From an uncultured bacterium (GTDB taxonomy: Bacteria > Eisenbacteria > RBG-16-71-46 > CAIMUX01 > WJJG01), in the NCBI GenBank assembly GCA_964603725.1, contig CAZRWW010000010.1, positions 34,935 to 98,934 on the forward strand: a stretch of 64,000 nucleotides of DNA, read 5' to 3'. The translations under genes were made by a program, and so were the position numbers. Positions 1 through 58,713 of the stretch are shown one piece after another (the first letter of the stretch is position 1; every line of letters begins with the position of its first letter). The notes beneath the pieces were generated by a model. It did not search any database. It was not told the DNA's origin and was given only the letters and a program-made list of their open reading frames with translations.

Positions 1-1041
1 CAGGAAGCGGGCGCCTTCCGGGTCGGCTTGCGCCATGGCCAGACCGCGCTCCGCCGCTTCCTCCGCCTCGGAGAGATTCACGTCTTGTCTCAGGCACCAG
101 TCGGCGAAGGACAGCATCTCCAGGTAGTTCTCGCGCCAGTTGTCGCTCAAGGTCGCCCGCCGGCAGGCGAGGGCCTGCTCGCGGTCCTTGAGCACGTATA
201 GCGCGTAGTCGACCAGCAGGCCCTGGCGGCCCCAGCTCGCGCAGGCCTCTTCGTCCTGCGCGGTCGCGATGATGACGGCATCGATGTACGACGCCGCCAG
301 GGTCGTGTCGCTGACCGGCGGATAGACGAGCGCCGCCATCGAGCGTCCCAGCTCGATCAGATTGGCGGAGGAGCGGCGCGGGGAAGCGATGACCGCGTCG
401 GCGGCCGCTGCCAGATCCGCCCGCGTGAAGGCCGAGTCGGCGCCGGGACTGAAGACGGCGCCCAGCAGGGTCTCGAAGATGTCCATCAGGTAGTCACGGC
501 CTGCGTCGGTGTTGAGCCGCTGGGCTTCTCGGTAGTACCGCACCGCTTCTGCATACGCGGATCGCGCGACATGATAGCGGGCGAGCCTCACGGCCAGATC
601 GGTGGTCGGCTGGGCCGCGAAGCGGGCGGTCTTGTCCTCGATGGTGGTGGGATCAGCCAGGGCCTCGGCCAGCGATCCGAGGAACCCGGCCTTCTCGTAC
701 CCCACCCAGCTTTCGATCGGGGCGCCTTCGGGAGTGAGCAGGGCAAAGGTCGGATAGGCCCGCACCCGGTGCTCCTGGCTCAGCAGCTTGCCTTCCTCCT
801 GCGCCAGGTCGGCGGTGAACAGGACGACCGCCGCCAACGCCCTGCGCACCTCGGAGTCCGACTTCGCCTCACGGACGAAGACGTCGCAGGCGTGTCACCC
901 GCGGGAGTAGAAGTCGATCAGCAGCGGCCGCCGCAGACTCTGAGCCCGCGCCCGCGCCTCCGCGAGCGTGGTCGGGGCCACGTCACGGGAACAGGACGAC
1001 GTTGTCGCGATGAAAAGCACGAGTGCCAATGGAGCGATCAT
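1..1041 (-). CDS. Thioredoxin-fold protein with signal peptide; 3' end is off-window. In-frame TGA at 895..897 falls at the first Cys of the redox motif (U-H-A-C), so this is a candidate selenoprotein.
   Basis: My own minus-strand translation gives MIAPLALVLFIATTSSCS..LLIDFYSRG[TGA]HACDVFVRE..RVRAYPTFALLTPEGAPIESWVGY, followed by an alpha-helical/TPR-like region that stays open to position 1. The DFYS..xxC..AYPTF pattern is typical of thioredoxin-fold/TlpA-like proteins. TGA is an ordinary stop elsewhere in the window (8112, 8804). Confidence 0.5.
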
Positions 1042-1067
1042 TGCATGGCGCACGCTCACCTCCTGCA

Positions 1068-2300
1068 CTACAGCCGCTCGAGCGGCCGAAACAGCCAGGC
1101 CCACCGGCCGGGCACCAGATCGATCGCTTGCACGGGACAGAACTCGTGGCAGCAGTAGCAGCGTATGCACGTCGCGTCGTCGACGCCACCGCCTTCTTTG
1201 CGCCGAGGATCGACGACCGCAGGGCTGGCGGCAGAGGGATCGACGACCACGGGGTCGTCGGCTGCGGGACCGACTGCGGCAGGATCGATCGCGGCGGGAT
1301 CGACCGGGCACCCCTGCGCGCAGGCGTAACAGCGGATGCAGGCCTCGGCGCGGATTCGCGGGCGGGGTTGCCACTGGCGGCGAATCCATTGCTGGGCGCG
1401 TTCGGGCAGCGGGAGGATGTTCAACAGACTGGTGATCTCGCTCACGCGCTCGAAGTCGTCCAGCCGCAAGGCGGCGAGGTCCGCCCCGCGCACCTCGATC
1501 TCCTCCAGCCGGGTGGTCCCGAAGCCGACCTCGGCCGCGGCGGTCAGGGTGGGGACATTGCGCGCATCGATGCCCACCAGGTGGCAGGCGACAACATCCA
1601 CCGCGGAAAGGTCGGCTCCCGCGATCAGCGCGCCCACTTCCCGCGGGCGGCCGCCGCTCGGCCCCGGCCCCTCCATGCCGACGATGCCGTCCATCACCGC
1701 CAGCACGGGCTGCACGATGCGGTTGATGTCCACGATCAGTCGCGCCAGCCAGATGCGAGTTTGCAGCCGGTAGTGGTAGCGGGCCTTGCGCGTGCCGGGC
1801 ACGAGACCGAACTGGTTCTTGACGGCGCCCGTGAAGGTGAGCTGGCCGTGCGTCTTCAGCTTGGGCAACGTGATCACGGCGTCGACCCCCGCGAGAGCAC
1901 TGGGCAGCTCGATGCGGCGCGCGACGCGATTCTCCGGGGCCTCGAAGACGCGAGTCTGCGTGAGGTCAACCCACTCGGCGCCGCCGTCCGCGATCGCGGC
2001 GAGCAGCCCCGCCTTGCGCGCCAACGCCAGCGGGTCGCCGACGCCCGGGTTGTCGCCCACCCATACGCGCGCGCCGGCCTCGCGGCACAGCTCGATCATG
2101 GCGCGCACGACCGCCGGGTGCGTGGTGATCGCCTTCTCGGGCGCGGCGCCCTGCAACAGGTTCGGCTTGAGCAGGACGGTCTGCCCGGCCCGCACGAAGG
2201 CGCCGATCCCGCCCAGCGGCTCCAGGCAGGCCCGCACCGCGGCGGTCACGCGTCCGCGGTCGTACGTGCGGATCTCGTGAAGCGCGACGACGGCAGCCAT
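1068..2300 (-). CDS. DUF362-domain protein with two C-terminal 4Fe-4S ferredoxin-type cluster motifs
   Basis: Complete 410-aa ORF. C-terminus carries CIRCYACAQGCP and CIRCYCCHEFCP (CxxCxxCxxxCP twice). N-terminal two-thirds matches the DUF362 family commonly fused to ferredoxin domains. Confidence 0.8.
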   Translation of the reverse strand: MAAVVALHEIRTYDRGRVTAAVRACLEPLGGIGAFVRAGQTVLLKPNLLQGAAPEKAITTHPAVVRAMIELCREAGARVWVGDNPGVGDPLALARKAGLLAAIADGGAEWVDLTQTRVFEAPENRVARRIELPSALAGVDAVITLPKLKTHGQLTFTGAVKNQFGLVPGTRKARYHYRLQTRIWLARLIVDINRIVQPVLAVMDGIVGMEGPGPSGGRPREVGALIAGADLSAVDVVACHLVGIDARNVPTLTAAAEVGFGTTRLEEIEVRGADLAALRLDDFERVSEITSLLNILPLPERAQQWIRRQWQPRPRIRAEACIRCYACAQGCPVDPAAIDPAAVGPAADDPVVVDPSAASPAVVDPRRKEGGGVDDATCIRCYCCHEFCPVQAIDLVPGRWAWLFRPLERL

Positions 2301-2320
2301 GTCAGGCGCCGGCCGTCATG

Positions 2321-3442
2321 TCACCGGGTGATCAGCAGCCGCTGCGTCTGCTGCTCGGTGCCGGTCTCCAGGCGGCAGAAGTAGACACCGGACGGGACGT
2401 CTGTACCCGTGTCGGTCCGGCCGGTCCAGGTCACGGCATGGCGGCCCGGAGCGCGGCGGCCCTCCAGCAGCGTGGCGATCCGACGGCCGGCCGAATCGTA
2501 GACCTCCAGACACACGTCGCAGCTCGCGCGCAGCTCGAAGGCGATCTCGGTCTCCGGGCGACCGGGGCTGGGCTGCGCCGGATAAAGGACCGGCGCCAGG
2601 TCGGACGCAACGCGGCTGCCCGGCTGTTCCTGAACGGCGGCCATGTTCATGAGCTCGGGAATCGAGACCTTGGCGCCTTGCCAGATCTCCAACGTGTTGT
2701 CGGCCTGGAAGACGGTGTCCTGGAAGAAGCAGATGACCTCGCACTCTCCCTCGACCCACGTGCCTTGGAGCTGGAAGGGCAGCGTGACGGAAGCGTACCC
2801 GTTTGCGGCGAGCGACACCGGCGTGCCGGTCTCCGTGGGAACCATGTCGCGCATGACGTGGTGGTGCCAATCGAGCTGATTGGGAGCCACATAGTACAGC
2901 TCCGACTCGGTGAGCACGCAATGCAGCTTGCCCGAGAGGCTGCTCGTGCCGGCGTTGTGGAGCATCACGGTCACGAAGCCCGTGCGCGTGCCCGCGTCAT
3001 AGTCGCCGCTCAGATCGAGGGTCACGTTGGACTGAACGGGCAGCCTGTTCAGCAGGTGGTTCTCCCAGCCCGAGTAGATGTATCCAGGGGTCGGGCAGCC
3101 GTCCAGCCACAACCACGGCCAGGCATAGTAGTAGCTGCCCCCGTAGTAGTAGGGCGGCGGATAGGTGTGCCAGCGGCTGTAGCCCTCGGTGGTGTAGTAG
3201 GGAGCGGCGGTGTTGGTGTAGTAGGCGATCGCCGCCACGCGCGTGTTGTACACGTCGGCCAGTCTGTCCAGCTCACGGCTGGCTTGCAGGCAGGACCCTC
3301 AGGTGGTGCTGGTGAAGTATTCCAGGACCGCCATGCGCTCGACGGCGCCGGCCGCGCCCGACCCGATCGCGATGATCAGGGCGGGGACCAGCGTCAGCCC
3401 GAACGCCATCCGCGTCAGGACCCGGCTCCGAGAATCGTGCAT
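2321..3442 (-). CDS. Secreted thioredoxin-like protein (WCGYC-type family) with a C-terminal FlgD-Ig/T9SS-like sorting domain. In-frame TGA at 3299..3301 replaces the first Cys of CxxC (T-U-G-S-C), so this is a candidate selenoprotein.
   Basis: The track ORF 2321..3253 continues upstream in frame through one TGA. The translation is MHDSRSRVLTRMAFGLTLVPALIIAIGSGAAGAVERMAVLEYFTSTT[TGA]GSCLQASRELDRLADVYNTRVAAIAYY.., a signal peptide followed by an EEFTATWCGYCP-like motif. The C-terminus VYDSAGRRIATLLEG..GVYFCRLETGTEQQTQRLLITR matches the FlgD-Ig-like sorting tail also seen at 23350..23607 and 25450..25693. The start could instead be the ATG at 3409. Confidence 0.55.
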
Positions 3443-3445
3443 GAC

Positions 3446-5413
3446 CTACCTCCATGGTTGTGGATGCCCAGGAATTGTACCATGTCGCGGTTGCGCCCGC
3501 GTATAGACGGCCCACCCGCCGCCCTCGAAGGCCGCGCTGAAGCCGCCCGCCGCCAAAACCTCCCCGAGGCGCCGCGCCAGGAGCTCGTCCGGAACGGGCG
3601 CGGGGCAGTAGGGATCCCACACGATCGCCTCGAAGCGCTCGAGCGGACGCCGAGGGGGCCAGCCACGCCAGTCCCGCTCGAAATCGACCGGCCGCAGCAG
3701 GGGGAACGGCTCGAAGCGCGCGTAGAGCGTGCGCCGCGGATCAAGGGCAGCGAGCGCGGCGCGGAGCCGGGGATCCGGCGGATCGGGGCGCGCGCTCTGC
3801 TGGAAGGCGGCCGCGAGCTCGGAGGCGTCCGCCCGGCCGCCCGCCACGGCGTCCGCCGAACCGGGCGGGCGCCAGTCGCGTCGGGCCAGCACGATCAAGG
3901 CCTCGGGCGATGCGCTGACCCGCGCATTGACGTCCGGAAAGCGGGGCGGCGTGTAGCTGGCCGCGAGGATCTCATCGCGCGTGTGCAAGCGCAGGAAGTA
4001 GGCCAGCTCCCAGTCCGAGATCACCTCGCGATGACCCTGCGCCAGCAGCTCGCGGGCCAACAGCGGGCGCAGCGAGGCCTGCGGCAGAACCCAGGCGGCC
4101 GTGGCGGAAAGAGCGGTGATCGCGCCCAGGATCGCCAGGCACACCGCGATCGGCGCGACGTGGCGCGCGGGCCAGACGCCCAGGCCGCGCGCCGCGGACA
4201 GCACGAGGAACGGGGTCAGGGGCAGCGTGTAGCGGAACCACTGGGGGTCGTTCCGGAACTCGGGCGTCACGAGCAGAACGGCCAGGCCCCCCGCGCCCAG
4301 GTACGCCGCCAGCGCCAGCCCGGGGTCGACCGCGCCGAGCCACGCCCGCCGCCGGCGCGCGGCGCGGATCCAGTCGATGACGCCCAGGGCCGAGACGACG
4401 AGATACACGAGCGTGAACAGAGCGAGCGCCACCGCGGCTTCGTTGCTCGACCACGTGCCGGTGGTGAGCGCGGCGGGGAAGGCGCGGGCGAGATCGGCCA
4501 GGAGCGCGGGGCGCAGGATCGACGCAAGCTCCGGCGCCCAGCCGGTGCCCTCCGTGCCGGGAGGACCGAGCGCCGCCGGAACCAGGCGCGGCAACCAGAG
4601 CGGAAGATAGCCGGCGAGGAAGCCCAGCGCGGCGACGCCCAGCGACAGAACGCCCGCCGGCCGCGGCCTCCAGCGCGCCGCAACCTGTCCCACGAGCAGC
4701 GCCAGGGCCGCGGGCACGAACAGCAGCGCCTGATCGTGGGTCCAGACTGCCAGCCCGAGCAGGACTCCGCCCAGGAGCGAGTCGCGGAGGCAACGCGATC
4801 CGGACTCGCGCCTCGCCGGCCAGAGCAGGAGCGTGCCCAGCAGCCCGAGCACGAGCGACTCGAGATACCCGCCGCGCGCCTTGACGCCGGCCAGGAAGAG
4901 GACCGCGGGCGGAAGCAGCCAGACCAATGCCAACCGGAGCGCAGGGCGGCGCGACGCGTCTTCCGTTGCCCGCCTCTGCCAGGCGCGCAGAACCCAGAGA
5001 CCGAGCGGCACCCAGAGCAGCGGCGACAGCCGCACGGCCGTGGCCGAGGGTCCGAACAGAGCCACCCAAGGCGCGGCGATGAGACTCTGCAGCGCACCCA
5101 TGTAACTCTGCCCGGGGAGGAAGAGCGAGAAGCGACCCGCGAGGATCTCACGGGCGTGCAGGCCTACCAGAGCCTCATCGGCGTCGAAGTTGGCGGGCCA
5201 CTGCGCGAGAAACCCGATTCGCGTGGCCACGGCCAGCAGCAGCAGCGCGGGCCAGGCGAGTCGGATCGCGAGGCGCCGCGCGCGCGAACGGCGCGGGACT
5301 TGTCCGGCCTCCTCCGGGTGCAGGCTCATGCGGGCGAGCATACCCCAGCCGGCCGGAGGCTGATAGCCCGTCCGGCGGGACCCGGCCCAGTGGCCGGGGT
5401 ATTCCCGGCGCAC
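3446..5413 (-). CDS. GT-C fold membrane glycosyltransferase (ArnT/PMT, GT39/GT83-like) with a C-terminal soluble domain
   Basis: About 12 predicted TM helices. A FDADE motif sits in the first extracytoplasmic loop, as in ArnT/PMT. The GTG start abuts the radical-SAM stop; alternative ATG starts are at 5341 and 5329. Confidence 0.6.
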   Translation of the reverse strand: MRREYPGHWAGSRRTGYQPPAGWGMLARMSLHPEEAGQVPRRSRARRLAIRLAWPALLLLAVATRIGFLAQWPANFDADEALVGLHAREILAGRFSLFLPGQSYMGALQSLIAAPWVALFGPSATAVRLSPLLWVPLGLWVLRAWQRRATEDASRRPALRLALVWLLPPAVLFLAGVKARGGYLESLVLGLLGTLLLWPARRESGSRCLRDSLLGGVLLGLAVWTHDQALLFVPAALALLVGQVAARWRPRPAGVLSLGVAALGFLAGYLPLWLPRLVPAALGPPGTEGTGWAPELASILRPALLADLARAFPAALTTGTWSSNEAAVALALFTLVYLVVSALGVIDWIRAARRRRAWLGAVDPGLALAAYLGAGGLAVLLVTPEFRNDPQWFRYTLPLTPFLVLSAARGLGVWPARHVAPIAVCLAILGAITALSATAAWVLPQASLRPLLARELLAQGHREVISDWELAYFLRLHTRDEILAASYTPPRFPDVNARVSASPEALIVLARRDWRPPGSADAVAGGRADASELAAAFQQSARPDPPDPRLRAALAALDPRRTLYARFEPFPLLRPVDFERDWRGWPPRRPLERFEAIVWDPYCPAPVPDELLARRLGEVLAAGGFSAAFEGGGWAVYTRAQPRHGTIPGHPQPWR

Positions 5414-6580
5414 TCAGACGGTGACTTCCTCGGTGTGCTCCGGCTCCAGTCGCGGCGCGCGACGACCCGGGCGGGTGCGCCTGTAGATCCGCAGATTCTG
5501 GGCGGCCTTGTTGCAGGTCGTGAAGCACTCCTTGCAGATGGGCCGGCCCGTGCGAGGCATGGCGAGCGAGTTCCGGCGGTACTGGCGGTAGCGCGACCCG
5601 TACCAGATCTCCGCGAAGCTCTGCTCGTGGATATTGCCCAGCACCTCCTCCTCGCAGTAGCAGCACGGGACCACCACGCCGTCGGGTCCGATGACGCAGA
5701 AGACCCATCCTTCGTAGCAGGGGATCTTGCGCTGCAGGGGATTGCTCTGGACTCTGCCCTGTCCGGACCGGAGAGGCAGATGCGTCGTGAACTCGGCGAA
5801 GTTGTGGATGATGCCCGCCCGATCGAGACGGCTTTGCCACTGCGGCACGCCGGCGAGCAGGCGGGCCATGTCCTCGGGCGTCAGGCGCAGATGGGCCGTC
5901 TCGGGCAGCTCGCCCATGACGTTCCAGACGATCTCGTCGACGCCGAGGTCCAGGCAGGTCTGGGCCATGCCGTCGAAGTCGTCCAGATTGTCGCGGCAGA
6001 CGACGTGACTCGCGCGCACCCATGGACGCTGCTGGCCCGCGGCGCGCCGCCGCTCGAGGACATCCTTGAGAAACGCGATGGCCTTGTCCCACAGATCGGA
6101 GCCGTTGATGAGCCGGTAGGTCTCGCGCGTGCCCGCATTGAGCGAGACCGTCAGTCGGTCCAGCTTCGTTTCCACCAGGGTGGGCGCGAAATCGGACCCG
6201 GCCAGAGTGGCATTGGTGACCATGGCGCACGCCATCCCCGTCCCCTTGATCGCCCTCACGATCTCGCTCGGATTGGGGTGCGCGATCGGGTCCCCCTTGC
6301 CGGACAGCTCGACCAGATCGACCCCGGCCTGGGCGAGCTCGCGCGCCAGCCGGCGGATCGTGGGCAGATCCATGGTCTTGCGGCCGCCGGCGTAGGTGCG
6401 CCACGCGGTGACCGGGGCGGGTTGGAGCCTGCCGTGCGATTCGCAGAAGACGCAGCGGAGGTTGCAGTGGTGCGTGACCTCCAGGCTGACCACCTGCGGT
6501 CCGACCAGGGGACGGCCCAGGGCGGCGCCGAGCATCCGTCGCGCCTGGCGAGAGCGGGATGTGAACTTGAACCGATCCAT
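5414..6580 (-). CDS. Radical SAM enzyme with a C-terminal SPASM domain (peptide/protein-modifying maturase family)
   Basis: CNLRCVFC is the CxxxCxxC radical-SAM cluster motif. The C-terminal Cys-rich SPASM region reads CYEGWVFCVIGPDGVVVPCCYCEE...ICKECFTTC. Confidence 0.85.
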   Translation of the reverse strand: MDRFKFTSRSRQARRMLGAALGRPLVGPQVVSLEVTHHCNLRCVFCESHGRLQPAPVTAWRTYAGGRKTMDLPTIRRLARELAQAGVDLVELSGKGDPIAHPNPSEIVRAIKGTGMACAMVTNATLAGSDFAPTLVETKLDRLTVSLNAGTRETYRLINGSDLWDKAIAFLKDVLERRRAAGQQRPWVRASHVVCRDNLDDFDGMAQTCLDLGVDEIVWNVMGELPETAHLRLTPEDMARLLAGVPQWQSRLDRAGIIHNFAEFTTHLPLRSGQGRVQSNPLQRKIPCYEGWVFCVIGPDGVVVPCCYCEEEVLGNIHEQSFAEIWYGSRYRQYRRNSLAMPRTGRPICKECFTTCNKAAQNLRIYRRTRPGRRAPRLEPEHTEEVTV

Positions 6581-6804
6581 GCGCAGTCCCTCCGGACACG
6601 ACCTTCACGGTGAATCTGACCAAGTGTACCACGGGCCTCGGATGGAGACCCAGGCCAAGCCGGGCCGTGGGCCGCGCGCCCGCCGACGCAGCCGGCGAGC
6701 GTCCGGAACCGCACACCCGCCGTCCGCCAGCGAACGATCCGTCGGGGGCGCGACCGACGTAACATGCTCCCTCGCAATCAGTTGCGTTCTGGCCCGGCTG
6801 TTGC

Positions 6805-14271: not shown

Positions 14272-17200
14272 TTGGCGCATCCCCCTCTGGACGGGATGCG
14301 GACGGACCGATTTGTGCGCCGTTGCACCCAGGGGCACAGCACCGTGGCCAGGACACCTGTGGCAACAGCGCGTGGGCGCGCGGGCGCGTGGGTCGGCCTC
14401 TGCCTGGCGAGCGGGCTGCTGTCCCCGGGCCAGATCCGGGCCGCGGCGATCGCGCTCCTCCTGCTGGCTGTCCTCGGCCACCCGGCGCTGGCCGTCGACC
14501 GGGTCTGGGACGGCGAGGGGCTGACCACCGCCTGGTCTAACAACCTCAACTGGTCGGGCGACACCGTGCCGGGCGCGGCCGACGTCGCCATCTTCGACGC
14601 GACGAGCTCCAAGGACGCGGTCATCACCGCCAACATCAACGTGGCCGGCGTCTCCATCCGCGCCGGCTACGGCGGCACGATCACGCAGAACGCGGGCCGG
14701 TCCATCACGGTCGGAGCAGCAGGTTTCGATCAGGCCGCCGGGACCTTCGCCGGCGGCACGAGCACGATCGACATCAACGGGCCGTGGACGCTCTCGGGCG
14801 GCAGCTTCACCGCGACCAGCGGCACGCTGGCGGTCAGCGGCAACCTCACCGTGAGCGGCGGGAGCTTCTCGCCCGGCGCCGGCACCGCGCAGTTCGACGG
14901 CACCCAGACGATCGCTGCCGACGGCGTGGTCTTCAACAAGGTCACCATCACCTCGGCCAGCACCCACACGATCACCCCGGGCACCACGATCACGGCCGCG
15001 GGCACGCTCACGCTGAGCAACGGCTACATCTCCGGCGGAACCCTGGCGGCGCAGGCGGCGATTTCCCAGGTTTCAGGCTTTGACGGCGGGACCGGCACCC
15101 TGCTCATCAACGGCGCCGGGGACCAGACCTTCACGGGCGCCAGCACCACCACGACCGGAACCCTGCCCGACGTCGTGATCGACAAGCCCGGGGGCGTCCT
15201 CACCCTGGCGGGGACAATCCGCACGACCAACGACTGGACCTACGTCGGGGGCGCACTGGATCCCGGCACCAGCCTGCTCGTCTTCGGCGGCACGCTGGCC
15301 GTCAGCGGCTCGCACACGCTCAAGCTGGTCCAGATCCGCGGCGCCACCACCGTGGCCGCGGGCACGACGCTCACGGTCGACAGCACGCTGACCATGCCCT
15401 CGGCGGTCGCCTTTGCCGTGAACGGCGGCGTCATCGTCAACCGCACCCTCACCCTGACGGACGGCTCGATCGCCGGCAGCGGCGCCGTGGAGGCGCGGGC
15501 CGATATCGCCCACGCCGCCACCTTTGACGGGGGCCTGGGGACCCTGCTCATCAACGGCCCGGGCGACCAGCTCTTCACGAGCGCGAGCACGACGACGACC
15601 GGCGACTTGCCGCATATCCGGATCGACAAACCGGGCGGCACGCTCAGCCTGGCGGGAACGCTGCGCCTCGTGACCGCCGACTGGACCTATATGGCCGGCA
15701 ACCTGGCGACGGCCGGCAGCGCCCTCGTCTTCGAGGGAACGGTGAACATCAGCGGCTCGCATGCTCTGGATCTGGTGACATTCCGGGGAACGGGGGCGAA
15801 GACCCTGGCGGCCGGCACGAACCTCACCGTGACCGGGGACCTGACCTTGACGGACGGCTCGATCGCCGGGGAGGGTGAAGTGGCGGCGCAGGCGAACATC
15901 GCCCAGGCCGCCGCCTTCGATGGCGGCGACGGGACGCTGCGTATCTGTGGCGCCGGTGATCAAACGCTCACCGGGGCGTGCACGGCCACGACGGGCGCCC
16001 TGCCCGATGTCGTGATCGACAAGCCCGGGGGCACCCTCACCCTGGCGGGGACGATCCGCACCATCAACGACTGGAGCTATCTCGCGGGGACGCTGGATGC
16101 CGGCGCCAGCACGATAGTCTTCGGCGGCACGCTGGCGGTGACCGGCTCGCACGAGCTGACCCTGGTCGAGATCCGGGGCGCCGCCACGGTGGCCGCGGGC
16201 ACAACGCTGACCGTCAAGAACACGCTCACCATGCCCTCCGCGGTGGCCTTCACCGTGGACGGCAGCGTCATCGCCACCAGCACGCTCATCCTGACCGACG
16301 GTTCGATCGCCGGCGTCGGCGCCGTGGAGGCGCGGGCCGACATCACCCACGCCGCCACCTTCGACGGCGGCCTGGGGACGCTGCTCATCAACGGCACGGG
16401 CGACCAGACCTTCACGAGCGCGAGCACCACCACAACCGGCGACTTGCCGCACATCCGGATCGACAAGCCGGCGGGCACGCTCAGCTTGGTGGGGACGCTG
16501 CGCATCGTTGCCGCCGACTGGACCTACGTGGCCGGAGGTCTGGCGCCGGGCGCCAGCCGCGTCATCTTCGACGGCACGGTCAACATCAGCGGATCGCAGA
16601 CCTTGAACCTGGTGACGTTACAGGGGATCGGCGCGAAGACCCTGGGCCCGGGAACGATCCTCACCGTGCCGAACACGCTGACCCTGACCGGTGGCTCGAT
16701 TGACGGAGAGGGCGAAGTCCGCGCCCAGGCGGGCATCACCCAGGCCGCCGCCTTCGACGGGGGCGCCGGCACGTTGCGCATCTGCGGCGCCGGCGACCAA
16801 ACCCTCACGGGCGCCAGCACGAGCACGACCGGATCGCTCTGCGACCTGGTGATCGAGAAGCCATCCGGCACGCTCACCCTGGCGGGGACGATCCGCACGA
16901 CCAACGACTGGACCTACAGCGCCGGCGCGGTGGCCTTGGGGACGTCGGCGGTGATCTTCGCCGGGAACGCGGTCGTCACCGGAACGCAGACGCTGCGGGC
17001 GGTGCAGGTCCGCGGCGATGTGACCGTCCCGGCGGGCACGACGCTCACGGTGAACAACGGCCTGACGGTGAACACGGCCGGCGCGTTGACGGTCGATGGG
17101 GTGGCGATCTCGACCAGCACCCTCACCCTGACGAACGGCGCGATCAACGGCCCCGGCCGGGTCGAGGCCCGCGCCAACATCACCCAGTCCGCCGATTTCG

Positions 17201-20200
17201 ACGGTGGCGCGGGGACCCTGCGAATCAACGGCACCGGCGATCAAACCTTCACCGGCAGCGCCACCCTCACTGAGGGGAGCCTGCCGGTTGTCGAAATCGC
17301 CAAGCCATCCAACACCCTCACACTGGCAGGCACGATTCGCGTGCAGGGATCCGCCTGGCGGCGCCTGTCGGGGACCGTCGCGTCCGGAACAAGCAGGCTT
17401 GTGCTGTCAAGCGGCGCGACAGTATCCGGATCCCATCAGCTGTACAACCTCGACCTCGAGGGCGACGGGGTCAAGACCGTCGAGGCGGGGACGACGCTGA
17501 CCGCGACGCGAACCCTGACCCTCGGCGGCGGAACCATCGATGGCGGCGCGCTGGTGGCCACCGGCGACGTGGTCCAGCTCCCGGCCTTTCTCGGGGGCAC
17601 GACCCTCCTCACCATCTCAGGCGCCGCGGCGCAGACCTTGACCGGGGGCGGCAGTCTGACCGAGGGCTCGTTGCCGTCCCTCACGATTCTCAAGACCGGC
17701 GGCGCACTGACCCTGAGCGGGATCATCCGCACCGAGCGCGACTGGACCTATGGCTCGGGCGCGGTGAACGCCGACACCAGCCTGGTCGTTCTGGGAGGGA
17801 CCGTCAATCTCGCAGCCGCCGGCATGGCCTTCAACGACCTGCGCCTGGATGCAACGGCGGTGACGCTCGCCACGGCGCTCGACGTCGACGACGACTTCGC
17901 CCTGTGCGACGGGGTGTTGGTCACGGCCGGGAATGCCGTGATGATCGGCGGGGACTGGTCCCAGACGGGCGGCACGCTCGTCCCGGGCGCCGCGGCCGTC
18001 ACCTTCAACGGCGGTCTCGATGCCGAGATCGCCTCGGCCGGTCTCGGGGCGGGGGCTCGATTCTCCGATCTGATCATCCAGAAGTCGGGTGGGGCCGCCG
18101 TCAGAGCGCTCGACGACCTCTGCGTGGGCGGGGACCTGCGCCTGACGACCGGGCGGCTCGACGGGGCGGACCGCAGGATCGTCCTGGCGGGAGACTGGCT
18201 CAACGATGCCGGGCCGAGCGCGTTCGCGGCCGGGACGGGCGCGGTCGAGCTGAACGGCGGGGGCCAGCTGATTGGCGGCGCGCACCCGACGACGTTTCAC
18301 GCCCTCGCGCTCGGCGGCAGCGGCGCCAAGAGCGCCGCGCGGGATCTTGCCGTCGTCGATCTGACCCTGGACCAGGACTTGCTCATTGCGCCCCACCTGC
18401 TGCGCATTTCCGGCGAGACGGCCGGCTCCGCCGACGTGGTCGGCACGGTCCGCCGGACCGTCAGCGGCGACGGCCCGTTCAGCCTCGGCAGTGCCCACAC
18501 GACGATCACGTTTGACGGTGTGGGGACGAACCCCGACTCGCTCGATGTGACCTTGACGCGCGGTGTCCCCCCGGTCGGTCTGCCCGATGCGGTCCGGCGC
18601 TACTACGATATCGCCGCTGCCGGCGGCGAGGGCTGGACGGCGACGCTGCGGCTGCATTACCGTCCCGACGAGCTGAACGGCAATGCCGAGGACGGCCTGG
18701 CGGTCTGGAGGCTGGCCGGAGTCTGGGAGCGCCTCGGCCGATCGGGACACCACTACGACCAGAACTGGATCGAGCGCTCGGGCGTCGCCCAATTCTCACG
18801 CTGGGCGCTGGCCTGCGGCTATCCGGATCACTTCGAGATCGATCCCATTCCCAGCCCGCAGACGGCCGGCGTGCCCTTCCCGCTCACCGTGACGGCCGTC
18901 GACTCATCCGGCGTCCGGCTGGCGGAGTACACGGGCGACCTGTCCCTCGCCACGACGGCCGGCAGCATCACTCCGGCGATGATCACGATGACCGCCGCGG
19001 ACAGCGGGCGCATCTCGCACTCGGTGCGGGTCACCGAGGCGGGCGCCGACCAGATCATCCGCGCCGACGACGGCGAGGGGCACCTGGGGCAGAGCAATCC
19101 CTTCACGGTCGCGCCGAGTCCGCTCAGACACTTCTCGATCCGCCCCATCGCCAGCCCACAGACCGCCGGCGTCCCGTTCGGGGTCACGATCGCGGCCCTG
19201 GACTCCTTCGCGAACCGGATCACCACATTCGTGGGTACCCTGACCTTGACGGCATCGGCCGGCGGCGTCAGCGGCGGGCGCATCGACATGACAGCGGCCG
19301 ACAGCGGGCTCGTCACCCGGCAGATCATGGTGGGGCGAGCCGAGCACGACCTCGTGCTGACCGCCAGCGACGGCCACGGTCACGCCGGCGTCACCAATGC
19401 CTTCACGGTTCTGCCGGCGATCACCAGGCGCTTCGCGATCAGATCAATCCCCAGCCCGCAGACGGCTGGCGAGTTCTTCGATCTGGAGATCACAGCGGAG
19501 GATGCTTACGGCAACGTCACGCCCGACTTCACCGGCGGCGTGGATCTCGCCACGAGCGCGGGATCGATCACGCCCAGGCGGGTGATCTTCAGCGTCACCG
19601 ACTGGGGCCGACACATCGAACCCGCCTGCGTGACCCTGGCCGGGCTCGGTCACACGGTCAGCGCCTCCGACACGAGCGGCCATCGCGGCACAAGCCGGCC
19701 GTTCGATGTCGCCGGCGCCCCACTTCATCACTATGACCTGGCCCCGATCGACAGCCCACAGACGGCCGGCGTCCCGTTCGAGATCGCCATCCGGGCGCTC
19801 GACCGCTTCGGGAACCTCTCGCCGGAAATCCCGGGGACGCTCGCCCTGGCCACCACGGCCGGGACGATCATCCCCGCGACCGCGAGGTTCAGCGCAGCCG
19901 ACAGCGGCCGGCATCGCGAAGGCGTCACGGTCACGGCGGCCGGCACCGGGCGCACGATCGAGCTCGTCGACAGCCTCGGGCGGGCGGCGACGAGCAACGC
20001 CTTCGACGTCCAGGCTGGCGGCGTGACACGGTTCGCCGTGAGGGCGATCCCGAGTCCGCAGACGGCGGGCGTGGCCTTCGACATCGCCCTGGAGGCGCTC
20101 GACGCCCAGGGCAATCTCGCCGTCGGCTTCGCCGGCGAGGTCGCGCTGGCGACCACGGCGGGGACGATCACGCCCGCCGCGGTAGTCTTCGCCCCGTCCG

Positions 20201-23200
20201 ATCGCGGCACGCGCGCGCTGTCCGTTCAGGTCACCCAGGCCGGAATGGGGCACGTCATCGCGGCGACGGACGCTGCTGGTCACAGCGGAGTGAGTGGACC
20301 CTTCAGCGTCACGCCCGGCGTTCTGGCGCGCTTCGCGCTCGCCGATGTGGCTAGCCCGCAGGTCGCCGGCGCGGCCTTCGATCTCGTGCTCACGGCCGAG
20401 GATTCCTGGGGCAACCGCGTGACGTCGTTTGCGGGCGATGTGGCCCTGGTCACCACCGCCGGGACCATCACCCCGGCGCTCGCTACCTTCGCCGGCGCCG
20501 ACAGCGGGCGGCACAGCGCGGCGGTCTGGGTGACCCTGGCGGCCGATGGGCGGACGATCACCGCCAGCGACGGCGCCGGGCACTCGGGCGCGAGCGCGCC
20601 CTTCACGGTGACGGCCGGTCCGCCCGCTCGTCTCGCCTTCGTCCAACAGCCGGGGAACGGCCGCAGCGGCGCGCCGCTGAGCCCACAGCCGGTGGTCGCG
20701 CTCGAGGATCTCTTCGGCAACCGCACCAGCCAGGTGGTCGCTATCGTGACGATGGCCCTGGCCGGCGGGGCCGCGGGTCTGCCCGGCGGCACGGCCACCG
20801 TGGTCACCGAAGACGGTGTGGCCGCCTTCCGTGACTTGCAGATCGATCGCGCGGGCGCGGGGCAGAGGTTGATCGCCAGCTCGCCCGACCTCGCGCCGGT
20901 TCTGAGCGCCGAGTTCGACGTCGAACCGGGTCCGGCCGCCAGGCTCATCTTCCTTGTACAACCCGGCGCCGGTGAGGGCGGCAGCGCGCTCGATCCCCAG
21001 CCTGTCCTCGCCGTGCACGATGCGGCGGGCAACCTGGCGGCCACCAGCACGGCCGTGATCCGTCTGGCCCTGGCGGACCCGCCGGTGCCGGCCGTCCTGT
21101 CGGGCTCGAGCAGCCGCGCCGCGAACGCCGGGGTGGCCGCCTTCGAGGACCTGAGCATCGACAGGTCCGCTTCCGGATACCGGCTCATGGCATCCTCCGA
21201 GGGACTCGTGGAGGCGGTGAGCGAGCCTTTCACGGTGCGCGTGGGGCCGGAAGTTGCGCTGGTGTTCATCACCCAGCCGGGACCGGCGATCAGCGAACAG
21301 CCCCTCGCGCCGCAGCCCGTGGTCGAGATCCGCGACGCGGGAGGCAACCGCGCCACCGTCACGGTCGCCGTGACGGTGTCACTGGGTGACCATCCCGCGG
21401 GCGCGACCCTGGAAGGATGCACGGTCGTGACCGCGACCGACGGGGTGGCGGCCTTCCCCGGCCTCATCATCGCGCGGGCCGCAGAAGGTTATACGCTGCG
21501 GGCGGCCTCGCCCGGGCTGATGCCGGCGCTCAGCGCGTCCTTCGGCGTCGCCGCCGGCCCACCGGTCGAGTTGGTCTACATTGAGCAGCCCAGTCATGGC
21601 TTCGGCGGTGAGCCGCTGGAGCGTCAACCCGCCATCGGCATCGCCGACGAAGCGGGCAACCCGACGGCCGCTGATGGCGTGGAGGTCAGGCTCGGCCTGG
21701 AGGGCGGCGACCGGGCTGGACGGCTGCTGGGCGCAAGCGCAGCGCGTTCGCGCGTGGGGCTGGTTCGCTTTCACGGCCTGCGCATCGACCGAAAGGGTCG
21801 CGGGTATGTGCTGGCGGCGCGATCGGACGGCCTGCGCGAGACCGCGAGTGCGCCGTTCGAGATCATCCCCGGGCGGCCAGCGGCGATCACGGCGTTCGGA
21901 GGCGAGGATCAGCGCGGGACAGCGGGGCTGCCGCTGGCCGAGCCCCTGCTCGCGCGCCTGGCCGATGCCGGCGACAATCCGCTGGCCGGCGTTCGGGTCA
22001 GGTTCGCGGTGACCTCATCCCCACGCTGGTCGAGCGGGCAGGGACTGAGCGACCCGCTCGTGGCCACCGACTCCGCCGGTGTGGCCGCGGTCCGGCTCAC
22101 GCTCGGGAGCCACGCCGGCGCCTATCAGGTGACGGCCACATCCCCCGACCTGCCCGGCCACGCGGTGGTCTTCTCGGCGAGCGCCCGTGAGCCGGACGGC
22201 ACCGGCGCGGTCACCATCGTGCCCATGGAGGTCTTCGCCGGCGCCGACGTGGACATCGCCTTCACGCTCCAGGCCGACGAGCGCGCCACCAACACGGAGG
22301 TGGCGATCGAATGGCCGATCGCATGGCGCTGGTCGGGTCGAGCCGCGGACCTCGAGCTGAGCGGCGACGGGTTCCTGGGCGCGCAGAGCTCCGTCTCCGG
22401 GAGCGGATCGGCGCACGATCCGTTCGTCCTGACCGTGACCCGCGCGCGCGTGGCGCCGCGGCGATTGGGGACTCTGACGGTGCGCGCCACGACGGCGCCC
22501 GAGGAGACCCGTGGCTTCGACTTCCGGGTCTCGACCGCCTCGCATTCGGGCTGTCTGACGCCGCTGGCGCACCAGCCCTCAGTCCAGGTGGGCCCACTCG
22601 TCGCGGGCGACGCCACCCTGGATGGGTTGGTGGACCTGCTCGATCTGCTGTCGCTGAGCGATTTCATCCAGGGACGGGGCGGCGACCTGGGCACGGCGCA
22701 GCGGCGCGCGGCGGACGTCTTCCCCGCGCATGCGGCCGCGCCGCGCGCGGGGCCGCCCGACGGGCGGCTGGAGCGCGCCGACATCGAGCTGCTCGAGCGC
22801 GCGATCCTGAACCAGGTCTGGGACGATGGGCTGGCGCTCGGCCGCGGCGGAGCACCGGCTCCGCCCGGCGTGAGCGGCGAAGCGATGCGAGCGGGCGGCG
22901 AAGCGATGCGAGCGGGCGGCGAAGCGATGCCAGCGGGCGGCGGCGACTTCTCGGCGGCCGGCGGGGATCTCACCCTGATCGCCGAGGCGGCCGCCGGCGG
23001 CGCGACCGCCCTGCGCATGACCAACGGGGTGCCCGTGCGCGGCATCCAGATCGATCTGCGGCCGCAAGCGGGTGGGCCGCTGGAGCTGCGCTGTCGCGGC
23101 TTCGATCGCGTCGACGGCTTCCGCCTGGTGTCCGCGATCGCTCATGGAGAGCATCGCATCCTGCTGTGGAGCCCCGGTGACGCCCTGATCGCGTCCGGGG

Positions 23201-51634: not shown

Positions 51635-51980
51635 GCCTCAGTGACGCTAGCGAAATCCCACGATTCGTCACGATCATACAAGCGGCCGGACTTGCTGTCA
51701 CCTGGTTGTCAGCGGAGCTTGTCTTTGCGTAGGCACCTGACTCAGCTTCTTGGTTATCGGACGGATCGCCCCAGCCCCGCCCGGGAGGTTAAGACGCAAC
51801 AGGAGATACAGATGTAAGCATTCCTGGCGCTGTAGCGACCCGCCGGTCACGCGCCTGCCTTGCACCCCCTGCGTCTGGCCCATAACCTCGCCACAGAATC
51901 GCACAATCCCGATTGACGGTCGCCCCCCGAACTCACTACTATCGACGTGTTCGGCAGCGCGTAGATGGCGCGGAAGGTCA
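51635..51980. promoter_or_regulatory. Divergent intergenic region between the PAAR2 effector operon (minus strand) and the ClpV-TssBC-Hcp-VgrG-TssEFG operon (plus strand)
   Basis: About 350 bp of non-coding sequence sits between two divergently oriented T6SS gene sets. No specific promoter motif could be assigned by eye. Confidence 0.3.
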
Positions 51981-54725: not shown

Positions 54726-54769
54726 TGGGAGACCCTTGGCGGGCTCCGAGACCATGAGCAGAAGGTGAG

Positions 54770-55237: not shown

Positions 55238-55255
55238 GGAAGCGGGGGAGCAGTC

Positions 55256-56638: not shown

Positions 56639-56642
56639 GCAA

Positions 56643-58184: not shown

Positions 58185-58240
58185 CCGATGCGTTCCAGAC
58201 CGTTCTAGGCACGACGTAACAGCCAACGGAGGACAAAGCC

Positions 58241-58672: not shown

Positions 58673-58713
58673 AGACCCTATTCCAGAAGCTGAAATGAAG
58701 GAGGATCGCAGTC

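What the first reader, a model, noticed from the sequence alone, without database searches (positions are those of the whole stretch)
880..1045. In-frame UGA at the first Cys of a thioredoxin CxxC motif (U-H-A-C): candidate selenoprotein 1
Seen in sequence: the minus-strand thioredoxin-fold gene reads LLIDFYSRG-[TGA]-HACDVF and stays open and protein-like for more than 290 codons downstream, with AYPTF..WVGY in register. Established knowledge: TGA terminates other genes in this window (8112, 8804), so the genetic code is standard, and UxxC thioredoxin-like folds are the most common bacterial selenoprotein class. Inference: this TGA is decoded as selenocysteine. A short hairpin with a CGUGAGG-containing loop starts about 12 nt downstream of the UGA, which is where bacterial SECIS elements lie.
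Basis: partly seen in the sequence, partly recalled or inferred. Interest (0 to 1): 0.7.

Follow-up and report, generated by a model that had tools for sequence, protein, structure and literature searches.

The report
Exported thioredoxin–TPR selenoprotein with conserved SECIS
The in-frame TGA is real and almost certainly encodes selenocysteine at the active site of an exported thioredoxin-plus-TPR protein. The protein belongs to a sizeable family that is mostly in the selenocysteine form, that gene callers truncate, and that I could not find in current selenoprotein catalogues.

Summary
**Observation: confirmed.**
- A minus-strand gene (start GTG 1053 or ATG 1041, running off the window start) has one in-frame TGA at 897..895, inside LLIDFYSRG-U-HAC.
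- Three independent assemblies carry identical DNA.

**Interpretation (selenocysteine): supported.**
- Across 168 related loci from at least 8 bacterial lineages, the aligned codon is TGA in 137, Cys (TGC/TGT) in 30 and Ser in 1. It is never TAA or TAG.
- Every Sec form has a 7-bp hairpin with a [C/G]G[U/G]GN pentaloop 14 nt after the UGA (window 880..862).
- The hairpin meets the published bacterial SECIS criteria and shows repeated compensatory changes at synonymous sites. It is absent from Cys forms, apart from one Cys form that looks recently converted.
- TGA terminates ordinary genes in the window, so the genetic code is standard.
- A second, unrelated U-x-x-C gene 2.4 kb away (TGA 3301..3299) has the same loop at the same spacing.

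**The protein.** It has a signal peptide or lipobox, a Thioredoxin_7 fold with U at the nucleophilic position, and a TPR superhelix. This is the CnoX/YbbN architecture, but exported.

**Not tested.** No selA, selB, selC or selD lies in the held sequence. Function is inferred.

**Novelty.** A new family within a well-known class.

The parts
1..1053 (-). Coding sequence of the thioredoxin-TPR selenoprotein. It is partial: the first 351 (GTG start) or 347 (ATG start) of about 476/472 codons, and the gene continues beyond window position 1.
   Evidence: Translation. GC3 is 0.87 in this frame. The full length comes from identical assembly L008. Homologues P0001-P0004.
1060..1065 (-). Shine-Dalgarno-like AGGAGG, 6 nt upstream of GTG 1053. 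The upstream DUF362/4Fe-4S gene stops at 1070..1068, so the two genes are probably co-transcribed.
   Evidence: Read directly from the sequence; ORF table. Inference.
991..1053 (-). Signal peptide (MRHAMIAPLALVLFIATTSS) ending in a lipobox-like TSS|C, with the Cys codon at 993..991.
   Evidence: Read from the sequence. All 126 family N-termini inspected have a hydrophobic leader with an AxA-type site or a Cys. The lipobox pattern is recalled from established knowledge, not scored by a predictor.
895..897 (-). In-frame TGA, proposed to encode selenocysteine (U49 counted from ATG 1041). It is the first residue of the U-H-A-C redox motif.
   Evidence: Aligned codon in 168 loci: TGA 137, TGC 23, TGT 7, TCG 1.
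886..888 (-). TGC, the resolving Cys (C52) of the UxxC motif.
   Evidence: T and G are invariant in the 122-sequence alignment (columns 13-14). Cys is invariant in the protein alignment A1.
862..880 (-). SECIS hairpin: 7-bp stem (880..874 pairs with 868..862) and CGUGA loop (873..869). There are 14 nt between the UGA and the stem, and 21 nt between the UGA and the loop. The hairpin also encodes part of helix alpha-1 (F-V-R-E-A-K).
   Evidence: RNAalifold consensus, pair counts, Sec versus Cys contrast, energies, covariance model 52.7 bits with E=1.7e-12, Fitch counts.
682..969 (-). Thioredoxin-like domain (residues about 25-120), including the cis-Pro motif YPTF (Pro codon 753..751).
   Evidence: Pfam Thioredoxin_7 at E=1.2e-10, 41.8 bits against a cut-off of 27. 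PDB sequence hits to thioredoxin and the DsbD gamma domain. Model of a Cys homologue with a beta-alpha-beta-alpha-beta-beta-alpha fold.
1..654 (-). N-terminal part of the all-helical TPR-like superhelix domain (residues about 130-347 of 472).
   Evidence: AlphaFold model of homologue P0006, pLDDT 92. Foldseek best hits are consensus-TPR and OGT TPR superhelices.

Best explanation
The TGA at 897..895 is a selenocysteine codon in a gene for an exported, probably lipid-anchored, thiol:disulfide oxidoreductase built from a Thioredoxin_7-type domain and a TPR superhelix.

**Decoding.** The ribosome reaches UGA-49. A 7-bp hairpin with a CGUGA loop lies 14 nt downstream, inside the coding sequence. 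It is bound by SelB-GTP-Sec-tRNA(Sec), which inserts Sec instead of terminating. Translation then continues for 423 codons.

**Protein.** After export, U49-H-A-C52 sits at the N-terminus of helix alpha-1, opposite the cis-Pro (YPTF). The selenolate acts as the attacking nucleophile on disulfides or oxidised thiols of client proteins. C52 resolves the selenenylsulfide. The TPR domain supplies client or partner binding. This is an envelope counterpart of the cytoplasmic Trx-TPR 'chaperedoxin' CnoX.

**What is shown.**
- The TGA and its conservation.
- The Sec/Cys alignment.
- The hairpin, its covariation and its absence from Cys forms.
- The standard genetic code.
- The signal peptides.
- The Trx and TPR folds, by prediction on a Cys homologue.

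**What is inferred.** SelB-dependent insertion, lipidation, the reductase direction, the client-binding role of the TPR domain and the electron donor.
For: **1. The Sec/Cys pair.** Among 168 loci the aligned codon is TGA in 137, Cys in 30 and Ser in 1. It is never TAA or TAG. Among species-representative genomes the split is 56 Sec, 23 Cys and 1 Ser. These span Eisenbacteria, Krumholzibacteriota, Zixibacteria, Gemmatimonadota, Acidobacteriota, Fibrobacteraceae, Ignavibacteria and Calditrichia. The peptide patterns used to collect the loci lie outside the TGA and hairpin region, so collection did not bias this count.

**2. The SECIS hairpin.**
- RNAalifold predicts the hairpin.
- The six core pairs form in 93-100% of 120 distinct sequences.
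- Both-sided changes occur at 24/36 (CG to UA, 6 sequences), 25/35 (GC to AU, 5; GU, 27), 27/33 (CG to UA, 19; GC, 2) and 21/39 (GC 58, CG 19, UA 13).
- The covariation score is 0.317, against at most 0.138 for slid partners, and 0 of 500 shuffles reach it.
- The 27/33 switch is between synonymous third positions: GCC/GAG or GCG against GCU/GAA or GCA.
- Pair states changed at least 6, 10 and 3 times at 27/33, 25/35 and 24/36 on a tree built from downstream protein sequence.
- Loop positions G2 and G4 are invariant.

**3. Contrast with Cys forms.**
- Sec forms pair 6-7 of 7 positions in 120 of 122 sequences. Cys forms pair 1-4 of 7 in 24 of 28.
- The median 25-nt MFE is -9.8 kcal/mol for Sec forms and -4.6 for Cys forms.
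- The covariance model scores Sec forms at 40-71 bits and Cys forms at 20 bits or less. The exception is L012 (TGC, 41 bits), which looks like a recent Sec-to-Cys conversion.

**4. bSECIS criteria (PMC13188914).**
- Loop of 3-9 nt: observed 5.
- Stem of 4-16 bp: observed 7.
- G in the first two loop positions followed by U or G: met.
- UGA-to-loop spacing of 16-37 nt: observed 21.
- MFE of -7.5 kcal/mol or lower: -10.4 for the 25-nt segment.

**5. Standard genetic code.** TGA terminates the HlyD-like and ABC ATPase genes, and 14 of 36 coding frames end in TGA.

**6. A second U-x-x-C gene on the same contig.**
- It has TGA at 3301..3299.
- The TGA is conserved in homologues at 52%, 48% and 34% identity.
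- It has the same CGUGA loop at nt 25-29 after the UGA.

**7. Fold and location.**
- Pfam Thioredoxin_7.
- A model with pLDDT 92 places the Cys aligned to U at the alpha-1 N-terminus and shows a TPR superhelix.
- Family N-termini carry signal peptides.

**8. Database behaviour.** Gene callers truncate every Sec form, splitting off a small 5' ORF of about 50 codons, while Cys forms are called full length.
Against: - No Sec machinery (selA, selB, selC/tRNA-Sec, selD) was seen. The window has no tRNA at all and no matching Pfam domains in 30 ORFs.
- There is no selenium-incorporation or proteomic evidence.
- Single-sequence folding of 71-nt windows is no better than shuffles in this 67% GC genome, with z-scores from -0.02 to +1.3. 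The bare 19-nt hairpin of the window copy scores only -7.1 to -7.4 kcal/mol, because it has a U-G pair.
- The family covariance model gives only 7.2 bits (E=1.8) for the second gene's hairpin. The 'shared SECIS' argument therefore rests on loop identity and spacing, not on a significant score.
- No conserved gene neighbourhood points to a substrate or a reductant.
Confidence: 0.88

Rival explanations
1. The UGA is read through without selenocysteine. This could be near-cognate Trp or Cys insertion, or a lineage-specific reassignment of UGA. In that case the hairpin would act as a generic read-through stimulator rather than a SelB-binding SECIS.
For: Sec machinery was not observed in the held sequence. 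RNA structures downstream of stop codons can stimulate read-through in other systems (general knowledge).
Against: TGA is a normal terminator in this window. The TGA occurs once per gene and only at the position where homologues have the catalytic Cys. The hairpin satisfies all the sequence and geometry rules of bacterial SECIS, including the invariant loop G followed by U or G. A second gene on the contig repeats the pattern at a UxxC site.
Confidence: 0.05
2. The TGA is a true stop. The locus would then be either a pseudogene or two separate genes: a 48-codon leader peptide ORF, and a TPR protein initiating downstream, as automatic annotation calls it (P0001).
For: Gene callers annotate it that way in every database copy.
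Against: The thioredoxin fold spans the TGA: beta-1 lies upstream, and xxC, alpha-1 and the cis-Pro lie downstream. Cys-form homologues are continuous proteins. The stop is conserved as TGA only in 137 loci, with protein-level conservation on both sides. A signal peptide would be left on a 48-residue fragment, while the TPR part would have none.
Confidence: 0.03
3. The TGA is a sequencing or assembly error in place of TGC or TGT.
For: None beyond the prior that single-base errors occur.
Against: Three independent assemblies from different runs have identical sequence. There are also 136 other loci with TGA at the same codon.
Confidence: 0.01

Closest known systems
Sec-containing thioredoxin-fold oxidoreductases with a UxxC motif, such as selenoprotein thioredoxin (PF00085) and 'thiol:disulfide interchange protein' (PF13098), as listed in Table 1 of PMC13188914
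   Same: Thioredoxin fold; Sec replaces the first (nucleophilic) Cys of CxxC; Cys-containing homologues exist; the SECIS lies immediately downstream inside the ORF.
   Different: The Thioredoxin_7-type domain is fused to a TPR superhelix of about 260-340 residues and preceded by a signal peptide. No NCBIfam selenoprotein model reaches its cut-off (best is TsoB, 20.5 bits against 805). None of the 119 families in the 2026 table has this architecture.
CnoX / YbbN 'chaperedoxin' (E. coli YbbN, PDB 3QOU; Caulobacter CnoX with an active CxxC; PMC6282202)
   Same: N-terminal thioredoxin domain plus C-terminal TPR domain. JGI labels one Cys-form relative 'thioredoxin-like negative regulator of GroEL'. 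3QOU and 3QDN are the only solved structures that align over both domains.
   Different: CnoX is cytoplasmic and hands clients to GroEL and DnaK. This family carries signal peptides or lipoboxes. The TPR domain is longer. phmmer finds no sequence match to 3QOU at E<=0.1. The Foldseek TM-score is only 0.21/0.28. No CnoX is known to contain Sec (literature search).
C-terminal (gamma) thioredoxin domain of DsbD, and Pfam Thioredoxin_7
   Same: Best sequence-level similarity of the Trx domain: NF001419 DsbD positions 465-552 at E=3.3e-7; PDB DsbD gamma domains at E of about 2e-4. Both are periplasmic reductase-type domains.
   Different: There is no membrane domain and no DsbD alpha domain. The score is far below the DsbD cut-off (29 against 330). 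It contains Sec rather than Cys and has a TPR fusion.
Trx7/PDZ domain-containing selenoprotein (NF041199; PMC13188914 Table 1)
   Same: A Thioredoxin_7-type selenoprotein fused to a protein-binding domain.
   Different: That family has CxxU (Sec in the second position) and a PDZ domain. It was not hit at E<=1 in the NCBIfam scan.
Bacterial SECIS consensus (bSECISearch model) and the E. coli fdhF SECIS
   Same: A stem-loop directly 3' of the UGA within the ORF, with a small apical loop that has G followed by U or G at its start, and spacing within 16-37 nt.
   Different: It is very compact and unusually uniform: a 7-bp stem, a pentaloop [C/G]G[U/G]GN, and a fixed 21-nt spacing across several phyla. 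No bulged U is evident. The hairpin fixes the peptide F-A-R-[E/A]-[A/V] in helix alpha-1 of Sec forms.

Membership tests
Bacterial selenoprotein gene (Sec-UGA with bSECIS) | In-frame UGA that aligns with Cys in homologues | tested here: met
   137 TGA, 30 Cys and 1 Ser at the same aligned codon, with no TAA or TAG.
Bacterial selenoprotein gene (Sec-UGA with bSECIS) | Apical loop of 3-9 nt on an upper stem of 4-16 bp (PMC13188914, Fig. 2 legend) | tested here: met
   5-nt loop and 7-bp stem.
Bacterial selenoprotein gene (Sec-UGA with bSECIS) | At least one G in the first two loop positions, usually followed by G or U | tested here: met
   Loop census: CGUGA 57, CGUGC 44, CGGGA 8, GGUGC 6, CGGGC 5, CGGGU 2. 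The G at loop position 2 is invariant.
Bacterial selenoprotein gene (Sec-UGA with bSECIS) | 16-37 nt between the UGA and the apical loop | tested here: met
   21 nt in all 122 sequences; the alignment is ungapped.
Bacterial selenoprotein gene (Sec-UGA with bSECIS) | Hairpin MFE of -7.5 kcal/mol or lower | tested here: met
   The window's 25-nt segment gives -10.4 kcal/mol, and 103 of 122 Sec forms are at or below -7.5. The bare 19-nt hairpin of the window copy is borderline at -7.4.
Bacterial selenoprotein gene (Sec-UGA with bSECIS) | selA, selB, selC (tRNA-Sec) and selD present in the same genome | not testable with these tools
   Only 64 kb of the genome is held. It has no tRNA and no SelA/B/D domains in 30 ORFs. 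There is no tRNA-Sec in the 170 loci held at that point. No SelD or SelA was found in all 1.73 Mb held.
Bacterial selenoprotein gene (Sec-UGA with bSECIS) | Selenium actually incorporated at the UGA | not testable with these tools
   Needs 75Se labelling or mass spectrometry.
Pfam Thioredoxin_7 (PF13899) / thioredoxin fold | Score above the Pfam gathering threshold | tested here: met
   41.8 bits against 27, E=1.2e-10, residues 25-104, scored with U replaced by C.
Pfam Thioredoxin_7 (PF13899) / thioredoxin fold | CxxC at the N-terminus of alpha-1 after beta-1, with a cis-Pro loop before beta-3 | tested here: met
   In the model of Cys-form homologue P0006 (pLDDT 92), beta-1 is 41-46, C50 and C53 sit at the start of helix 51-62, and FPTF precedes strand 99-103. 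The window protein aligns as U49, C52 and P97. This was tested on a homologue, not on the window protein itself.
CnoX / YbbN chaperedoxin | N-terminal Trx domain fused to a C-terminal TPR domain | tested here: met
CnoX / YbbN chaperedoxin | Cytoplasmic protein (no signal peptide) working with GroEL and DnaK | tested here: not met
   Signal peptide or lipobox in the window protein and in all 126 inspected family members.
CnoX / YbbN chaperedoxin | Detectable sequence homology to YbbN | tested here: not met
   3QOU is absent from phmmer hits at E<=0.1. Foldseek gives E=5e-4 with TM-scores of only 0.21/0.28.
Catalogued prokaryotic selenoprotein families (NCBIfam release 20; Table 1 of PMC13188914) | Match to a family-specific model at its cut-off, or the same domain architecture and Sec motif in the catalogue | tested here: not met
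   The best selenoprotein model is TsoB at 20.5 bits against 805. No Trx7+TPR UxxC entry appears among the 119 listed families. Full-text searches found no such report.

The most novel reading that the evidence does not exclude
This is the first recognised member of an uncatalogued selenoprotein family: exported, CnoX-like 'seleno-chaperedoxins'.

- The family comprises about 170-350 clusters at 50% identity.
- It is confined almost entirely to uncultured lineages: Eisenbacteria, Krumholzibacteriota, Zixibacteria, Gemmatimonadota, Acidobacteriota, Fibrobacteraceae, Ignavibacteria and Calditrichia.
- About four-fifths of genes are in the Sec form.
- A single compact SECIS type (a 7-bp stem with a CGUGA-like pentaloop, fixed 21 nt from the UGA) is conserved across these lineages and dictates the peptide FAR[E/A]A in helix alpha-1.
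Probability: 0.55. Interest if true: 0.6.

Novelty: new member of a known kind. Interest (0 to 1): 0.5.

Why it matters
**Annotation.** Every Sec-form copy in public protein collections is truncated to an unnamed 'TPR' fragment. A family of exported redox proteins is therefore invisible in poorly known phyla that are common in soil and sediment. A model for it would repair hundreds of gene calls and flag these lineages as Sec users.

**Biology.** It would add a selenoprotein that combines a redox-active Trx domain with a client-binding TPR scaffold outside the cytoplasm. This is an envelope analogue of the chaperedoxin idea.

**RNA and protein constraints.** The Sec/Cys contrast cleanly shows an RNA element constraining protein sequence: FAR[E/A]A is fixed in Sec forms and free in Cys forms. 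The L012 fossil hairpin captures a Sec-to-Cys conversion in progress. The uniform hairpin could also seed a lineage-specific SECIS model for finding further selenoproteins.

Tried and rejected
- **Rfam.** A scan of the window at gathering thresholds gave no hit. This is uninformative, because I know of no bacterial SECIS family in Rfam.
- **tRNA-Sec.** ARAGORN found no tRNA-Sec on the window or on the 170 loci held at that point.
- **Sec machinery in the window.** A Pfam scan of 30 GC3-supported window ORFs found no SelA, SelB or SelD. The window holds a T6SS cluster, PAAR proteins, ClpV/ClpB-like ATPases, MacAB-like ABC genes, a histidine kinase, a radical SAM/SPASM gene and a DDE transposase.
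- **SelD/SelA probes.**
  - The single hit was an AIRS protein in L171, next to a homologue of the second selenoprotein.
  - NCBIfam scores it below every cut-off (hypE 91 bits, selD 62 bits against 125).
  - It lacks the SelD N-terminal Gly-rich Cys/Sec-Lys motif, so I rejected it as SelD.
- **Single-sequence folding.** z-scores on 71-nt windows were not significant in this GC-rich sequence. I replaced this test with comparative analysis.
- **Family covariance model on the window.** It finds the main site at 52.7 bits. The second gene's hairpin scores only 7.2 bits (E=1.8), so the model is family-specific and not a general SECIS detector. Marginal extra hits in L029 and L055 are not in-frame Sec sites.
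- **Structure prediction.** I modelled Cys-form homologue P0006 instead.
- **Gene neighbourhood.** No conserved neighbourhood exists. The neighbours differ in L001, L003, L007 and the window.
- **Source genome.** I could not obtain the source genome's accession or name.
Full report
**1. The observation**

On the minus strand, the frame that starts at ATG 1041 (or GTG 1053, six nt behind an AGGAGG) reads MIAPLALVLFIATTSSCSRD...RRPLLIDFYSRG-TGA-HACDVFVREAK... It then stays open for 298 codons to the edge of the window, with AYPTF and WVGY in register. The TGA is at 897..895.

This frame has the codon-position GC pattern of real genes in this 67% GC window, with GC3 of 0.87. With U replaced by C, residues 25-104 match Pfam Thioredoxin_7 above the gathering score (E=1.2e-10).

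The called protein in public collections (P0001, 408 aa) starts downstream of the TGA. The full gene, read through the TGA in assembly L008, is 472 codons, and L008 is identical to the window over 1041 bases. Three assemblies from different sequencing runs carry the same TGA. A sequencing error is excluded.

TGA at 8110-8112 and 8802-8804 terminates a HlyD-like gene and an ABC ATPase gene. Fourteen of 36 well-supported coding frames in the window end in TGA. The genetic code is standard.

**2. Relatives**

The three other database relatives (69%, 51% and 35% identity) were also called as N-terminally truncated proteins preceded by an ORF of about 50 codons. Reading their DNA showed the same layout in each: signal peptide, LIDF[FY]xxx, TGA, xxC.

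I then scanned one genome per species (GTDB representatives) and JGI metagenomes with peptide patterns that lie outside the TGA region (AWWCFE, AV.Y.EAQ, KPLLIDF). This gave 160 more loci.

A tblastn alignment of the N-terminal 180 residues against all 170 loci placed query residue 49 on a subject codon in 168:

| Aligned codon | Loci |
|---|---|
| TGA | 137 |
| TGC | 23 |
| TGT | 7 |
| TCG | 1 |
| TAA or TAG | 0 |

In the species-representative genomes the split is 56 Sec, 23 Cys and 1 Ser. These genomes are spread over Eisenbacteria, Krumholzibacteriota, Zixibacteria, Gemmatimonadota, Acidobacteriota, Fibrobacteraceae, Ignavibacteria and Calditrichia.

The only cultured carrier, Sulfidibacter corallicola, has the Cys form. 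Several MAGs carry both a Sec and a Cys paralogue, and L067 has two Sec-form copies in tandem.

An exhaustive HMMER search with the TPR part found 172 clusters (50% identity) at E<=1e-30 and 351 at E<=1e-10. Lengths fall into two groups. One is about 300-340 aa, starting just after the Sec position. The other is about 380-420 aa and full length.

**3. The RNA element**

In 122 distinct Sec-form sequences, the 51 nt around the TGA align without gaps. RNAalifold predicts one hairpin: columns 21-27 pair with columns 33-39, closing a 5-nt loop.

In the window this corresponds to:

- stem 880..874 paired with 868..862
- loop CGUGA at 873..869
- 14 nt between the UGA and the stem
- 21 nt between the UGA and the loop

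The six inner pairs form in 93-100% of sequences. Both-sided changes that keep pairing occur at four pairs. The covariation score is 0.317, against at most 0.138 when the 3' partners are slid by 1-3 columns, and no shuffle out of 500 reaches it.

The switch at pair 27/33 is between two synonymous third positions: Ala GCC with GAG or GCG, against Ala GCU with GAA or GCA. It therefore cannot be explained by selection on the protein. On a neighbour-joining tree built only from protein sequence downstream of the hairpin, pair states changed at least the following number of times:

| Pair | Minimum state changes |
|---|---|
| 27/33 | 6 |
| 25/35 | 10 |
| 24/36 | 3 |

The loop is [C/G]-G-[U/G]-G-N, with both G invariant.

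The published bacterial SECIS criteria are a 3-9 nt loop, a 4-16 bp stem, a G in the first two loop positions usually followed by G or U, 16-37 nt from UGA to loop, and an MFE of -7.5 kcal/mol or lower (PMC13188914). All are met. The window's 25-nt segment folds at -10.4 kcal/mol, and 103 of 122 Sec forms pass the energy criterion.

The Cys forms serve as a natural control:

| Measure | Sec forms | Cys forms |
|---|---|---|
| Pairs formed out of 7 | 6-7 in 120 of 122 | 1-4 in 24 of 28 |
| Median 25-nt MFE (kcal/mol) | -9.8 | -4.6 |
| Covariance-model score (bits) | 40-71 | 20 or less |

At the protein level, Sec forms have the fixed peptide F-A-R-[E/A]-[A/V] in helix alpha-1. Cys forms vary freely there (FTKAAE, FNKESK, FQADAS and others).

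One Cys form is an exception. L012, from a Zixibacteria MAG, has TGC but keeps an intact hairpin at 41 bits. It looks like a recent Sec-to-Cys replacement.

**4. Other support for Sec decoding in this organism**

The window has no tRNA genes and no SelA, SelB or SelD. The rest of the genome could not be reached.

A scan for in-frame TGAs flanked by coding signal found a second case 2.4 kb away on the same strand. It reads AVLEYFTSTT-TGA-GSC, with the TGA at 3301..3299 in a gene running from 3442 to 2321.

- The protein is Omp28-like with a FlgD-Ig/T9SS-type tail. It is distantly related to the NCBIfam 'Omp28-related selenoprotein' model, below cut-off.
- Its database relatives are again N-terminally truncated.
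- Three relatives, at 52%, 48% and 34% identity, keep the TGA at the same place.
- The TGA is followed by CCAGC-CGUGA-GCUGG. This has the same pentaloop at the same distance (nt 25-29 from the U of UGA) as the main gene.

The family-specific covariance model does not score this second hairpin significantly (7.2 bits). The link rests on loop identity and spacing. Two unrelated UxxC genes with conserved TGA and the same loop geometry on one contig are what a Sec-decoding organism would show.

**5. What the protein is**

An AlphaFold model of the full-length Cys-form homologue P0006 (37% identical over the aligned part, 15-sequence alignment) has mean pLDDT 92. It shows:

- a disordered leader
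- a minimal thioredoxin fold (beta-1, alpha-1, beta-2, alpha-2, beta-3, beta-4, alpha-3)
- the Cys aligned to U directly after beta-1, at the N-terminus of alpha-1
- a cis-Pro motif (FPTF; YPTF in the window) before beta-3
- a continuous helical-repeat domain

Foldseek against the PDB matches the repeat domain to consensus-TPR and O-GlcNAc-transferase TPR superhelices. It matches the N-terminal domain to thioredoxins and to a Bacteroides disulfide isomerase. The only entries aligned over both domains are E. coli YbbN/CnoX (3QOU) and its Salmonella orthologue, at low TM-score. By sequence, the Trx domain is closest to the DsbD gamma domain.

All 126 family N-termini inspected carry a hydrophobic leader with an AxA-type site or a lipobox-like Cys. 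The window has ...FIATTSS|C. The family is therefore exported.

Sources name Cys forms 'thioredoxin family protein', 'thiol-disulfide isomerase/thioredoxin' or 'thioredoxin-like negative regulator of GroEL'. The Sec forms in these searches are unnamed, apart from one JGI fragment labelled 'TPR repeat protein'.

**6. Mechanism**

Shown:

- A conserved UGA sits at the catalytic position.
- A conserved, covarying hairpin with SECIS properties follows it.
- The genetic code is standard.
- The proteins have export signals.
- The architecture is Trx plus TPR.

Inferred:

- SelB-GTP-Sec-tRNA(Sec) binds the hairpin and inserts Sec at codon 49.
- The exported, possibly lipid-anchored protein uses the selenolate of U49 to attack disulfides or oxidised thiols of envelope proteins held by the TPR domain.
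- C52 resolves the selenenylsulfide.
- A membrane electron transporter of the DsbD or CcdA type re-reduces the protein.

Cys-form relatives mostly have the thioredoxin-type WCGPC motif, which points to a reductase rather than an oxidase role. No conserved neighbouring gene identifies a substrate or a donor. The functional part is therefore the weakest link.

**7. Comparison with what is known**

Trx-fold UxxC selenoproteins with an intragenic SECIS are the commonest class of bacterial selenoprotein.

The family itself does not appear to be catalogued:

- NCBIfam release 20 has no model that reaches cut-off (best selenoprotein model is TsoB, 20.5 bits against 805).
- None of the 119 families or subfamilies in the May 2026 review table has a Trx7+TPR UxxC architecture. 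The nearest is Trx7/PDZ with CxxU.
- Full-text searches for a selenoprotein combined with TPR or CnoX found nothing relevant.

The family resembles CnoX in architecture but fails two CnoX criteria: cytoplasmic location and detectable sequence homology. I therefore call it CnoX-like in design, not a CnoX.

**8. Verdict**

The open items are the unverified Sec machinery and the inferred function. This is a new family within a known class, of moderate interest.

Noticed in passing
window 2321..3442 (minus); TGA at 3301..3299: A second candidate selenoprotein. It has a signal peptide, then AVLEYFTSTT-U-GSC, an Omp28-like domain and a FlgD-Ig/T9SS-type tail. The TGA is conserved in homologues L171, L172 and L173 (52%, 48% and 34% identity). 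The hairpin CCAGC-CGUGA-GCUGG has its loop at nt 25-29 after the UGA, the same geometry as the main finding. The gene is weakly related to NCBIfam 'Omp28-related selenoprotein' NF045500 (22 bits, far below the cut-off of 200).
   Followed up: partly
window 45147..45149 (minus): A PAAR-domain gene (45150-46229) and a 1338-codon ORF with no Pfam match (41121-45134) are in the same frame. They are separated only by a TGA and four codons before an ATG. They are probably just adjacent T6SS effector genes. I saw no Cys alignment and looked for no hairpin.
   Followed up: no
L012:2714-2764: A Zixibacteria Cys-form homologue (TGC) still carries an intact SECIS-type hairpin, UUUGCC-CGUGA-GGCAAA (41 bits with the family model). 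It appears to be a recent Sec-to-Cys conversion with a fossil SECIS.
   Followed up: partly
L067:10076-10126 and 11429-11479: Two Sec-form copies of the family lie in tandem in one Krumholzibacteriia MAG. Each has its own signal peptide, TGA and hairpin.
   Followed up: partly
L041/L080, L055/L081, L033/L068/L079, L049/L066: Single MAGs carry both Sec-form and Cys-form paralogues of the family, and in one case a Ser form. The Cys paralogues often have a KVG/KIG beta-1 strand and a CSAC or CSSC motif, which suggests a separate subfamily.
   Followed up: no
L171:1372-2427 (minus): An AIRS/AIRS_C protein lies divergently next to a homologue of the second selenoprotein. It scores better as HypE-like and lacks the SelD N-terminal motif, so I do not accept it as SelD.
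   Followed up: yes
window protein residues 390-395 (beyond the window; seen in L008 and alignments A1 and A3): A motif, AWWCFE, with a conserved Cys sits in the TPR domain of both Sec and Cys forms: Cys invariant in the four-sequence alignment A1, at least 90% conserved in A3. It could be a third redox-active or structural Cys. Its conservation is partly an ascertainment effect, because the motif was used as a search pattern.
   Followed up: no
window 1068..6604 (minus): The two selenoprotein genes lie in one co-directional run: radical SAM/SPASM (5417-6604), an unknown 655-aa ORF (3449-5413), the Omp28-like selenoprotein, a DUF362 + 4Fe-4S protein (1071-2300; Npun_F2552 family, below cut-off), and the Trx-TPR selenoprotein. 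This arrangement is not conserved in relatives.
   Followed up: partly
window 14272..23607 (+) and 51750..61198 (+): A 3112-codon ORF whose only Pfam match is a C-terminal FlgD-Ig domain. There is also a type VI secretion cluster (ClpV-like ATPase, TssB/TssC, two Hcp, VgrG), with two PAAR genes and a DDE transposase (37577-38617) nearby.
   Followed up: no
window clade (window, L001, L003; alignment A1 columns about 311-388): The window's clade has an insertion of about 78 residues in the TPR domain relative to most of the family. It also has G or S instead of W before the Sec (G-U-H-A-C rather than W-U-G-x-C).
   Followed up: no
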